Assembly (NCBI RefSeq): GCF_009914755.1
Contig: NC_060932.1
Strand: one strand, 5' to 3'
Source: the human T2T-CHM13v2.0 reference genome, Homo sapiens
Length of the DNA: 64,000 nucleotides
The position numbers were made by a program, and so were the translations under genes. Under the pieces are notes generated by a model. That model saw only the letters and a program-made list of their open reading frames with translations, had not been told where the DNA came from and did no database searches. Shown here piece after piece: positions 3,690-7,399 of the stretch. Positions within the stretch are counted from its first letter, which is position 1. Each line of letters begins with the position of its first letter.

Positions 3690-4044
3690 ACAAGCACCTC
3701 ATGATCTCCAAAAAAAATCTAAAATCTAAAAATATCAAGCTCATAGTAGCAGAGAGTAGAATGGTGGTTGCCAGAAGCCAGGGGTTGGGGGAATGGGGAG
3801 ATGTTGGTCAAAGGATACAAAATTTCAGCTGGACAGGAGGAATAATTTCGGATCTATTGTACAACATGGTGACCATAATCATGACGTATTGTATACTTGA
3901 AAATTGCTGAGCAAGTAGATTTTGTGTTCTCGTTACAAAAAAGGGTAAGTATGTTAATTAGCCTGATTTAGCCATTCCACAATGTAGACATATTTCAAAA
4001 CATCATGGTGTACACCATAAATATATAGAATTTTGGTAAATTTA
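3690..4044 (+). mobile_element. L1MA-type 3' end, interrupted by the SVA; its tail resumes at 6192-6220
   Basis: gtagcagagagtagaatggtggttgccagaag...gccattccacaatgtagacatatttcaaaacatcatggtgtacaccataaatatata. Confidence 0.85.
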
Positions 4045-4716
4045 TTTTTATTATTTTTTAATAAGAACATAAAAATTTATTCTGTTAATTGACTAAAATA
4101 TTTTATAACTATAGTTTTGATAACATAAGTTTCTATGTTTTTGTGTATAATTTTAAAGAGGAAAAATGAAAACATGTTCGTATTTTGCTTAAAAGTTATC
4201 AACTTAAAGGTAAATACATTTAAAAGAGCATAATTTTTTTTCCTGTAACATACTCATTCTGTATCAAAGTTATTCTCTGTCCAAAAAGCATTTTTCAGCA
4301 TTGCAGATGGAGTCAAGAGATTTTTTAAATAACTGTACCAGTCATGACTATGAAAGTATAGTCCTACTTCACCCTGATATGGAAAGTTTATTAACTGGAA
4401 ACACAAAGTCATTTTTTTCCCTTGTTATGTCTGTCTTAGACTGTTCAGACTGCTATAACAAAGTACCTCAGATTGGGTAACATAAAAAATAGAAATGTAT
4501 TTCTCACAGTTGTGGAGGCTTGGAGGTTCAAATTTAAGGCACCAGTAATATCTGGTTGAGGGCCTGCTTCCTAGATCAGACATGGTGACTTCTTGTTGTG
4601 TCCTTACATAGTAGAAGGGGCAAACATGCACCATTCAGGTCTCTTTTATTATTATTATTTTTTTTACCAACCTCAGATTATTCGTTTAATAACATCTTTA
4701 CAGGTATCCATCATTC
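4045..4716 (-). other. Two serial SVA 3' transductions (4060-4643 and 4666-4716), each closed by its own poly(A) remnant
   Basis: T-tracts at 4045-4059 and 4644-4665; minus-strand AATAAA 4076-4081 and ATTAAA 4685-4690; all inside the TSD TGGTAAATTTA (4034-4044 / 6192-6202). Confidence 0.8.
4428..4647 (-). mobile_element. MLT1A-type LTR half, inside the transduced segment
   Basis: tgtcttagactgttcagactgctataacaaagtacc...atttctcacagttgtggaggcttggagg; stops at ggtctctttt with no continuation beyond the SVA. Confidence 0.75.
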
Positions 4717-6191
4717 TTTTTTTTTTTCTTTTTTTAGTATTTATTGATCATTCTTGGGTGTTTCTCGGAGTGGGGGATTTGGCAGGGTCATAGGGCAATA
4801 GTGGAGAGAAGGTCAGCAGGTAAACATGTGAACAAAGGTCTCTGGTTTTCCTAGGCAGAGGACCCTGTGGCCTTCCGTAGTGTTTGTGTCCCTGGGTACT
4901 TGAGATGAGGGAGTGGTGATGACTCTTAACGAGCATGCTGCCTTCAAGCATCTGTTTAACAAAGCACATCTTGCACCACCCTTAATCCATTTAACCCTGA
5001 GTTGACACAGCACATGTTTCAGAGAGCACGGGGTTGGGGGTAAGGTATAGATTAACAGCATCCCAAGGCAGAAGAATTTTTTCTTATTACAGAACAAAAT
5101 GGAGCCTCCTATGTCTACTTCTTTCTACACAGACACAGTAACAATCTGATCTCTCTTTCTTTTCCCCACATTTCCCCCTTTTCTATTTGACAAAACCGCC
5201 ATCGTCATCATGGCCTGTTCTCAATGAGCTGTTGGGTAAACCTTCCAGACGGGGTGGCGGCCAGGCAGAGGGGCTCCTCACTTCCCAGACCTGGCGGCCG
5301 GGCAGAGGCGCCCCCCACCTCCCAGACGGGGCAGCTGCCGGGCGGGGGCACCCCCCCACCTCCCAGACAGGGTGGCTGCCAGGCGGGGGCGCCCCCCACC
5401 TCCCAGACAGGGCGGCCGGGTGGAGACGCTCCTCACTTCCAGATGGGGTGGCTGGGCAGAGGCGCTCCTCAGTTCCCAGATGGGGTCGCGGCCGGGCAGA
5501 GGTGCTCCTCACATTCCAGATGGGGTGGCCGGGCAGAGGCGCTCTCCACATCCCAGATGATGGGTGGCCAGGCAGAGACGTTCCTCACTTCCTAGATGGG
5601 ATGACGGCCGGGAAGAGGCGCTCCTCACTTCCCAGACTGGGCGGCCTGGCAGAGGGGCTCATCACATCCCAGATGATGGGCGGCCAGGCAGAGATGCTCC
5701 TCACTTCCTAGACGGGGTGGCGGCCAGGCAGAGGCTGCAATCTCAGCACTTTGGGAGGCCAAGGCAGGCGGCTGGGAGGTGGAGGTTGTAGCGAGCCGAG
5801 ATCATGCCACTGCACTCCAGCCTGGGCAACATTGAGCACTGAGTGAGCGAGACTCCGTCTGCAATCCTGGCACCTCGGGAGGCCAAGGCAGGCAAATCAC
5901 TAGAGGTCAGGAGCTGGAGACCAGCCCAGCCAACACGGCGAAACCCTGTCTCCACCAAAAAATACAAAAACCAGTCAGGCGTGGCGGCATGCACCTGCAA
6001 TCCCAGGCACTTGGCAGGCTGAGGCAGGAGAATCAGGCAGGGAGGTTGCAGTGAGCCGAGATTGCGGCAGTACAGTCCAGCCTTGGCAACAGAGGGATAC
6101 CATGGAAAGCGGGAGACAGAGACGAGGGAGAGTGGGAGACCGTGGAAAGCGGGAGACAGAGACGACGAGGGAGACGGAGAGGGAGAGGGAG
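4717..6191 (-). mobile_element. Near full-length SVA retrotransposon, older subfamily (SVA_A/B-like)
   Basis: Poly(A) 4717-4735, AATAAA 4740-4745 (minus), SINE-R about 4736-5235, GC-rich VNTR about 5240-5730, Alu-like domain about 5730-6100, degenerate CCCTCT hexamers about 6100-6191. Confidence 0.97.
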
Positions 6192-7399
6192 TGGTAAATT
6201 TAATAAATAAATTTTTTAAATGAAGCTGATGGTTAGAGCTGGTCTTTACTCAAAGCATCAGCATATTAAAATTTTAATCACAAAATTACTTTAAAAATGT
6301 GTGTGTGTGTGTGTGTATGAAATAACCTAAGTGGATAGATTATTTGTGTCATTTTAAATACTCAGTCTTGTTGAGAACTAATGTTGAACCAATCTTAGGT
6401 AGTTTTAAAATCACTCATCACTGATTTGGAAACAGGGAGTATTAGCCCTTTTAGGAGCCCCTGTGTTCTGTTAAAGGATTTAAGAACGAGGCATCAGAAG
6501 CACCCATCACTTAAACACAGTGAAGTCAGTGCAGTGCTCAGCTTTCAGGCTGTGCTGGGGATTCCCAGGGGGCTTTTAACCCAGCGGGCCAGTCAGGGAG
6601 GTGCCTACCTGGGGGAGATGAGCTTCAGTAGTTAGGCAGGAGTGATCAGGCAGGATCATGTGATGGGCCACTTTTTGTAGGTCAAAAATCATCAGTTTTG
6701 CATAGTTCAACCTAATCATCAACATAGTAGTATCTGGACAGAGGACAGAATAGGAGCAGGCAAATGTCTTATTGTCCCTTTCCCATGGTCTGAGCTCAGG
6801 ATGTGCCTCAGGGTCCTTGGCCTCCATAGAAGCTCACTCCTCTTTCCCCCACAGCCTGTGACTAAAGATGTGGGGTGACTCCTCCTCTGCAAGGGACAGG
6901 CTTTTGTTCCTTGTTGAGCTACAATAGCAGTGAGTCTTTCTTCCCTTGTCACAGGTGTGGGCCACGTGTGGCAATAGTAGGAAGAGGAAAGGGAAAACCC
7001 CATTAAACGATGGTTGGGTACTCATCCAATGTCAAGAGCAGATGCTGGTGAACTCATGCGGTAGTCATTGCATAATGTGTCTACACACAGGAACTGTAAG
7101 CCTGTGGAGGAGGGCTTCTCACAGGAGGCCAACAGATCTCAGACCTTGTTGGCGGTATGATTATGGCTTTAGGTTGCCATTGATATTTGAATAATTTTAA
7201 TTTCCAGCTTTTACATAGTAACTGCCCCCACGACTGATTGCTTTGTATTTTGTGAACTCGATTCATGTGTTATCTCTCCCAAAGAGCTGCAACTTCCCGA
7301 GAGCTTGGGGACTGTTATATTTCCTTGCACCCCCAGCACCTACAGAAGGAGAAGGGAAATGAGGGAAATAAATGGCAATCTAGTGCTAGCACCAGCTAT

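What the first reader, a model, noticed from the sequence alone, without database searches (positions are those of the whole stretch)
4034..6202. SVA with two stacked 3' transductions: three generations of retrotransposition in one insertion
Seen: TGGTAAATTTA (11 bp) flanks 4045-6191, about 670 bp further left than the SVA tail, and joining the copies restores one L1MA tail with a TTT/AA endonuclease site. On the minus strand the order is SVA, poly(A)#1 (4717-4735), 51 bp unique DNA with ATTAAA 19 nt before poly(A)#2 (4644-4665), about 585 bp foreign DNA with AATAAA about 16 nt before poly(A)#3 (4045-4059). Known: SVAs read through weak poly(A) signals and transduce 3' flanks. Inference: a grandparent copy donated the 51-mer, a parent copy donated the 585-mer, and this is the grandchild, so it barcodes an old SVA source lineage.
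Basis: partly seen in the sequence, partly recalled or inferred. Interest (0 to 1): 0.85.

Follow-up and report, generated by a model that had tools for sequence, protein, structure and literature searches.

The report
SVA carrying two stacked 3' transductions
A full-length SVA retrotransposon upstream of PPDPFL carries two pieces of DNA picked up from chromosomes 6 and 13 during two earlier jumps, which is a clean but ordinary example of a well-documented process.

Summary
An 11-bp direct repeat (4034-4044 and 6192-6202) encloses a 2147-bp minus-strand insert: a full-length SVA (4717-6191), tail 1, a 51-mer, tail 2, a 584-nt piece and tail 3. A search of the window's own genome gave each piece exactly one source. 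The 51-mer comes from chr6 (C6:25393778-25393833, 54/56 identical). The 584-mer comes from chr13 (C13:66148638-66149235, 574/599 identical, 18 substitutions). Both sources carry the same poly(A) signal 16-19 nt before the copied stretch ends. Both begin next to an L1-endonuclease-type site. So this is not one long transduction with an internal A-rich run. Serial 3' transduction (chr6, then chr13, then chr8) is the best reading, at about 0.9.

Neither source locus holds an SVA in this genome. No other copy in the genome shares either barcode, so the "lineage" has a single survivor.

The ape and macaque empty-site test could not be run, because no primate genomes are on hand.

The kind is in print. 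One SVA source with three sequential mobilisations was shown by nested transductions (10.1101/2020.12.16.423102). 27 "concatenated" SVA transductions were reported in PMC12593883. Interest is low.

The parts
3760..4033 (+). Left flank: 3' end of an old L1 (the target of the insertion)
   Evidence: 6014 first-look candidates in the own genome; the 39 scored non-self matches are 74-81% identical; family copies end here and run into an A-rich tail. The subfamily was not determined.
4034..4044 (.). Target-site duplication, copy next to the 3' end of the insert (TGGTAAATTTA on the + strand)
4045..4059 (-). Poly(A)#3, the tail of the final retrotransposition into chr8
   Evidence: 15 nt, two interruptions
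4060..4643 (-). Second (outer, younger) 3' transduction, 584 nt, copied from chr13 (own genome C13:66148638-66149235, + strand)
   Evidence: E 7.7e-274, 96%. (574/599 identical, 18 substitutions, 7 gap columns). (the unique part has only the window copy and chr13 in the genome).
4076..4081 (-). AATAAA poly(A) signal used for the second transduction, 16 nt before tail 3; conserved at the chr13 source
4644..4665 (-). Poly(A)#2, the tail of the parent copy (inferred to have sat at chr13), now an A/TAA-type run. The last ~6 nt may already be chr13 sequence.
   Evidence: In one search the alignment runs 6 nt into it with 1 mismatch.
4666..4716 (-). First (inner, older) 3' transduction, 51 nt, copied from chr6 (own genome C6:25393778-25393833, - strand)
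   Evidence: E 1.6e-17; 2 of 2 candidates scored. (54/56 identical, including the flanking A's).
4685..4690 (-). ATTAAA poly(A) signal used for the first transduction, 19 nt before tail 2; conserved at the chr6 source
4717..4735 (-). Poly(A)#1, the tail of the grandparent SVA copy (inferred to have sat at chr6)
4736..5241 (-). SVA SINE-R part with the element's own AATAAA at 4740-4745 (the boundary with the VNTR is approximate)
   Evidence: all 39 scored non-self matches are 96-97% identical over 3-505 or nearly so; 14-17 mismatches per 504 nt to the 11 nearest copies.
5242..5735 (-). SVA VNTR (about 12.7 units of 37 nt)
5736..6097 (-). SVA Alu-like part (boundaries approximate)
   Evidence: One search shows matches to Alu copies in L002 and L012.
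6098..6191 (-). SVA 5' end: a CT-rich hexamer-type stretch with a roughly 46-nt unit present twice; not masked in NCBI's file
   Evidence: TRF 6147-6191. (matches the 5' parts of other SVA copies from base 1).
6192..6202 (.). Target-site duplication, copy next to the SVA 5' end
6203..6222 (+). Right flank: the A-rich tail of the same old L1, continuing from the TSD
   Evidence: By my reading of the printout, 16 of 19 family copies continue from the equivalent of 4034-4044 straight into an A-rich tail.

Best explanation
This is one L1-mediated insertion of a full-length SVA transcript that had picked up flanking DNA in two earlier generations. The numbered steps below are inferred from the structure.
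1. An SVA copy sat on chr6, directly upstream of C6:25393833 reading on the minus strand.
2. Its transcript ran past the SVA's own AATAAA and tail and was cleaved 19 nt after a chr6 ATTAAA.
3. That RNA (SVA, tail 1, 51-mer) inserted on chr13 directly upstream of about C13:66148638 and gained tail 2.
4. The chr13 copy was again transcribed through its tail, for 584 nt, and was cleaved about 16 nt after a chr13 AATAAA.
5. That RNA inserted by target-primed reverse transcription into the end of an old L1 on chr8. This gave tail 3 and the 11-bp TSD.

Shown directly: the two source loci, the shared poly(A) signals, the three tails, the single TSD, and the intact state of both source loci.

Inferred: that SVA copies once sat at chr6 and chr13. 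They are absent now, most simply because they were low-frequency alleles that were never fixed.

The 3.0% substitution difference from chr13 suggests an age of roughly 15 Myr if about 1e-9 substitutions per site per year is assumed. That rate is recalled, so the date is an inference.
For: - Single TSD around the whole 2147-bp insert: 2 matches in 64 kb against 0.18 expected. There is no TSD for the inner units.
- The 584-mer has one other copy in the 3.1-Gb genome, on chr13: E 7.7e-274, 574/599 identical. The remaining 38 scored hits are 72-84% identical and cover only the first ~220 nt. They are copies of an interspersed repeat.
- The unique part (4060-4430) gave 2 candidates, both scored: the window itself and chr13.
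- The 51-mer gave 2 candidates, both scored: the window itself and chr6 at 54/56.
- chr13 is the original. The 195 nt upstream of the boundary are the colinear continuation of the same repeat in 7 of 8 family copies; the 8th gave only a 21-nt match. The chr8 copy therefore starts in the middle of a repeat.
- chr6 is unique sequence running on both sides without A-tails.
- ATTAAA and AATAAA are present at the sources at the same positions.
- The source boundaries read TT|AAGA on chr6 and TT|ATAA on chr13, give or take up to 6 nt, on the sense strand. Both are close to the L1 endonuclease preference (recalled).
- A-tails sit at both inner junctions, which excludes splicing as the way the pieces were joined.
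Against: - Neither inferred progenitor exists in this genome. chr13 and chr6 both read as uninterrupted 'empty' sites, so the two intermediate copies are inferred and not seen.
- No sibling copy shares either piece, so there is no independent witness of the intermediates.
- Poly(A)#2 is a mixed A/TAA run, and its border with the chr13 sequence is uncertain by up to 6 nt.
- The genome search skips very common words and scores only the best candidates: 40 of 2315. For the two unique queries all candidates were scored.
Confidence: 0.9

Rival explanations
1. One-step chimera. During a single target-primed reverse transcription on chr8, the L1 reverse transcriptase copied a polyadenylated chr13 RNA, then jumped to the tail of a polyadenylated chr6 RNA, and then to the tail of an SVA RNA. 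On this reading no SVA ever sat on chr6 or chr13.
For: Both source loci lack an SVA, and no sibling carries either piece. Template switching by L1 reverse transcriptase is known for snRNA/L1 chimeras (recalled; no paper seen here).
Against: It needs a polyadenylated RNA only 51 nt long from chr6. It also needs both cellular RNAs to start exactly where an L1-endonuclease-type site lies at the source, which read-through from an inserted SVA explains without further assumptions. Complete tails at both junctions and the strict order SVA, older piece, younger piece are what serial transduction gives.
Confidence: 0.04
2. A single 3' transduction of about 660 nt from one locus, in which 'poly(A)#2' is just an A-rich stretch of the source DNA.
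For: Poly(A)#2 is a degenerate A/TAA run and not a pure tail.
Against: The two pieces map to different chromosomes, chr6 and chr13, each as the only other copy in the genome. At chr13 the sequence upstream of the boundary is the continuation of a repeat and not the 51-mer. At chr6 the sequence after the 51-mer is not the 584-mer.
Confidence: 0.01
3. Independent nested insertions at chr8: a processed copy of a chr13 transcript inserted first, and an SVA with a 51-nt transduction landed next to it later.
For: Each unit has its own A-tail.
Against: The inner units have no TSD of their own: the longest shared k-mer is under 5 nt for poly(A)#2 and 6 nt for poly(A)#1. The 11-bp TSD pairs the SVA 5' end with the outermost tail. 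A second insertion landing exactly at the first base of an earlier retrocopy, leaving no duplication, is improbable.
Confidence: 0.02
4. DNA-level duplication or chance resemblance: the direct repeat is accidental and the foreign DNA arrived by segmental duplication or repair.
For: The region is AT-rich, where short repeats are commoner. 3 of 100 shuffles of the window reached 2 matches somewhere in 64 kb.
Against: The repeat copies lie exactly at the SVA 5' end and at the outermost tail. Both pieces stop 16-19 nt after poly(A) signals and are followed by A-tails. Joining the flanks restores one L1 3' end with its tail.
Confidence: 0.01

Closest known systems
Serial (nested, 'concatenated') SVA transductions in human long-read assemblies: Ebert et al. 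preprint 10.1101/2020.12.16.423102 (passages seen) and Mob DNA 2025 PMC12593883 (passages seen)
   Same: SVA followed by two or more flank-derived pieces from different loci, each closed by a poly(A) tail. These are read as offspring that became source elements in turn. PMC12593883 reports 27 such cases among TD-carrying polymorphic SVAs.
   Different: The published cases are young, polymorphic, human-specific insertions, mostly with a source element still traceable. This one sits in the reference assembly, differs by about 3% from its sources, and both progenitor copies are gone.
Serial 3' transductions of L1, used to trace L1 lineages: Szak et al. 2003, as cited by Hancks & Kazazian 2016, PMC4859970 (passage seen; the 2003 paper itself is not held)
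   Same: The same read-through mechanism, the same stacked architecture, and the same use as a lineage marker.
   Different: There the carrier is the autonomous L1. Here it is a non-autonomous SVA mobilised in trans.
Catalogue of SVA 3' transductions in T2T-CHM13: Hoyt et al. preprint 10.1101/2021.07.12.451456 (passages seen)
   Same: The same assembly and the same class of event. The preprint reports 55 highest-confidence SVA 3' transductions found with a TSD-based tool.
   Different: With no TE at either source locus it may have fallen into a lower confidence bin.

Membership tests
SVA retrotransposon, full length | CT-rich hexamer-type 5' end, Alu-like part, VNTR, SINE-R, own AATAAA and A-tail, in that order | tested here: met
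   (order read directly). (VNTR 5242-5735). (SINE-R 96-97% identical to the 39 scored non-self SVA copies). (the 5' 152 nt match other SVA 5' parts from base 1). The subfamily (A-F) was not determined, because no labelled consensus is on hand.
L1-mediated (TPRT) insertion | Target-site duplication of about 7-20 bp enclosing the insert, a 3' A-tail, and an AT-rich endonuclease-type target | tested here: met
   11-bp TSD. Tail 3 at 4045-4059. The joined target reads ...AAATTT|AATAAA on the + strand, which fits the recalled TTTT/AA preference, with 1 nt of ambiguity.
3' transduction | Non-element DNA between the element's tail and a second tail, inside the TSD, with a source locus elsewhere that carries a poly(A) signal just before the end of the copied stretch | tested here: met
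   for both pieces
3' transduction | A progenitor element directly upstream of the source sequence | tested here: not met
   No SVA at chr13 or chr6 in this genome. This is the usual fate of unfixed source alleles and does not exclude the mechanism, but the progenitors are inferred only. Other human haplotypes and apes are not on hand.
Serial / concatenated transduction | Two or more transduced pieces from different loci, each with its own tail, in the order oldest nearest the element | tested here: met
   chr6 piece inner, chr13 piece outer, three tails. The order of events itself is inferred from the architecture.
Hominoid-specific insertion (absent from Old World monkeys) | Empty orthologous site in macaque; presence in some or all great apes | not testable with these tools
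   The search tool states that the window's genome has no relatives held. Only divergence is available: 18 substitutions in 592 aligned sites.

The most novel reading that the evidence does not exclude
The stacked structure was made in a single event by reverse-transcriptase template switching between three polyadenylated RNAs (chr13 RNA, then chr6 RNA, then SVA RNA). No SVA ever resided on chr6 or chr13, which would explain why both source sites are empty and why no sibling exists.
Probability: 0.04. Interest if true: 0.5.

Novelty: already known. Interest (0 to 1): 0.18.

Why it matters
The locus is a tidy, fully resolved pedigree of three successive SVA jumps (chr6 to chr13 to chr8) from roughly the early great-ape period. 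Both intermediate source copies have vanished. It illustrates that SVA offspring quickly became sources themselves, and that active sources were often transient alleles.

Beyond that it adds nothing new in kind. Serial SVA transductions are already described and counted: one example in 10.1101/2020.12.16.423102 and 27 cases in PMC12593883.

The insert lies about 12 kb upstream of the most distal annotated PPDPFL exon, and there is no sign that it matters for that gene.

One use remains. The chr6 and chr13 sites are precise places to look in ape T2T assemblies for a surviving progenitor, which lineage sorting could have preserved there.

Tried and rejected
- Single long transduction with an internal A-rich run: rejected, because the pieces map to chr6 and chr13.
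- Inner TSDs for nested independent insertions: none found.
- 5' transduction at 6098-6191, suspected because that stretch is unmasked in NCBI's file: rejected, because it matches other SVA 5' parts.
- Siblings sharing a barcode: none in this genome.
- Relative age from CpG content of the SINE-R: uninformative. There are 6 CpG here against 6-10 in the 11 nearest copies. It showed only that the nearest SVA copies differ by 14-17 of 504 positions.
- Subfamily naming (SVA_A-F, L1MA, and the repeat at chr13): not possible, because no labelled repeat library is on hand.
- Papers not held: Xing 2006, Hancks & Kazazian 2010, Damert 2009, Szak 2003.
- Earlier findings of the scan were not open.
- A broad phrase search returned only gene-therapy papers.
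- A search for SVA together with PPDPFL or C8orf22 showed no such paper among the 10 listed of 1,449.
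Full report
**Observation**

- TGGTAAATTTA stands at 4034-4044 and at 6192-6202. These are the only two matches in the 64-kb window on either strand. Dinucleotide-preserving shuffles gave a mean of 0.18 matches, and 3 of 100 shuffles reached two.
- The two copies sit exactly at the outermost T-run (4045-4059 on the + strand) and at the CT-rich 5' end of a minus-strand SVA (6191).
- Read on the minus strand, the insert of 2147 bp is as follows:

| Element | Coordinates | Note |
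|---|---|---|
| SVA 5' hexamer-type stretch | 6098-6191 | |
| Alu-like part | about 5736-6097 | |
| VNTR | 5242-5735 | TRF, about 12.7 units of 37 nt |
| SINE-R | 4736-5241 | own AATAAA at 4740-4745 |
| poly(A)#1 | 4717-4735 | |
| 51-mer | 4666-4716 | ATTAAA at 4685-4690, 19 nt before the next tail |
| poly(A)#2 | 4644-4665 | |
| 584-nt piece | 4060-4643 | AATAAA at 4076-4081, 16 nt before the last tail |
| poly(A)#3 | 4045-4059 | |

- The inner units have no duplication of their own. Against the 34 nt to the right of the insert, the 30 nt left of poly(A)#2 share no k-mer of 5 nt or more. Those left of poly(A)#1 share at most 6 nt, and those left of poly(A)#3 share the 11-mer.
- The unmasked stretch 6098-6191 is SVA sequence and not a 5' transduction. 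The first 152 nt of the element match the 5' parts of other SVA copies from base 1: L037 covers 1-152 at 91% and L041 covers 1-152 at 84%.

**Target site**

- The left flank (3760-4044) belongs to a very abundant old family. There were 6014 first-look candidates, and the 39 scored non-self matches are 74-81% identical.
- In the printed ends of 19 such copies, 16 by my reading continue from the equivalent of 4034-4044 directly into an A-rich tail. In the window, that tail is what follows the right-hand TSD copy (6203 onward).
- So joining the flanks restores one L1 3' end with its tail. The nick site on the + strand reads AAATTT|AATAAA, with one base of ambiguity.
- The name L1MA was not tested.

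**Sources of the two foreign pieces**

The window's own 3.1-Gb genome could be searched.

The 584-mer:
- It has one other full-length copy, at C13:66148644-66149231 on the + strand (E 7.7e-274, 96%).
- A local alignment extends this to L002:1495-2092, with 574 of 599 columns identical, 18 substitutions and 7 gap columns.
- The other 38 scored hits are 72-84% identical and cover only about the first 220 nt. They are copies of an interspersed repeat.
- The non-repeat part (4060-4430) gave only two candidates, both scored: the window itself and chr13.

The 51-mer:
- Queried as 4660-4722, it gave only two candidates, both scored: the window itself and C6:25393778-25393833 on the minus strand (E 1.6e-17).
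- The alignment is 54 of 56 identical, including the flanking A's.

**Direction of copying**

- On chr13, the 195 nt upstream of the boundary are the colinear continuation of the same interspersed repeat in 7 of 8 family copies examined. The eighth gave only a 21-nt match.
- The chr13 locus is therefore intact, and the chr8 copy begins in the middle of a repeat.
- On chr6, the sequence runs on as unique DNA on both sides, without A-tails.
- Both sources contain the same poly(A) signal at the same place as the chr8 copy.
- Both copied stretches begin next to sites that resemble the L1 endonuclease preference on the sense strand: TT|AAGA on chr6, and TT|ATAA on chr13, the latter uncertain by up to 6 nt because the end of tail 2 and the chr13 sequence overlap. 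The preference itself is recalled.

**Mechanism**

The simplest account is serial 3' transduction.
1. An SVA on chr6 was transcribed through its own signal and tail to the chr6 ATTAAA.
2. That RNA inserted on chr13.
3. The chr13 copy was transcribed through tail 2 to the chr13 AATAAA.
4. That RNA inserted on chr8.

A-tails at both inner junctions rule out splicing as the way the pieces were joined. The mapping to two chromosomes rules out a single long transduction with an internal A-rich run.

Not seen: the two intermediate copies. Both source loci are uninterrupted in this genome, and no other copy in the genome shares either piece. The pedigree therefore rests on architecture alone.

The most likely reason is that the chr6 and chr13 copies were never fixed. 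A single-event origin by template switching between three polyadenylated RNAs is not strictly excluded. It would need a 51-nt polyadenylated chr6 RNA and two coincidental starts at endonuclease-type sites. I give it about 0.04.

**Age**

- 18 substitutions in 592 aligned sites is 3.0%, and the 51-mer shows 2 differences in 56.
- The nearest SVA copies differ from this one by 14-17 of 504 SINE-R positions.
- With a recalled rate of about 1e-9 per site per year, 3.0% between two copies gives about 15 Myr, with wide error.
- That would fit an early great-ape SVA rather than a human-specific one. This is an inference.

**Comparison with what is known**

[quoted passage not shown] They cite Szak et al. 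2003 for L1; that paper is not held.
- PMC12593883 (passages seen) reports 27 cases in which one SVA carries transduced sequence from multiple source loci, and concludes that offspring serve as sources.
- The CHM13 repeat preprint (10.1101/2021.07.12.451456; passages seen) lists 55 highest-confidence SVA 3' transductions in this very assembly.
Xing 2006, Damert 2009 and Hancks 2010 are not held.

**Verdict**

The case is an ordinary, if very clean, member of a described class. Its only slightly unusual traits are its age and the loss of both progenitors. Interest is low.

Noticed in passing
window 3948-4114: NCBI's repeat mask runs across the insertion junction: the L1 end, the TSD, tail 3 and about 55 nt of the chr13-derived piece. 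The rest of the 584-mer, including its ~220-nt interspersed-repeat part (about 4425-4643), is not listed among masked stretches of 100 nt or more. The mask therefore does not follow the true element borders here.
   Followed up: partly
window 6098-6191: The SVA 5' end contains a roughly 46-nt unit present twice (TRF periods 6/12/18 at 6147-6191) and is left unmasked in NCBI's file. It matches the 5' parts of other SVA copies.
   Followed up: yes
L002:2210-2500 (own genome chr13, about 120 nt downstream of the poly(A) site used): An Alu copy lies just downstream of the chr13 cleavage site. The read-through transcript ended before reaching it.
   Followed up: no
L022, L023, L024, L031 (own genome C21, C14, C13, C24): Four L1 3'-end copies have nearly identical ends and flanks on three acrocentric chromosomes and on contig 24. 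They look like copies of one segmental duplication and not independent L1 insertions.
   Followed up: no
window 6298-6316: A perfect (TG)9.5 microsatellite lies about 100 nt to the right of the insertion.
   Followed up: no
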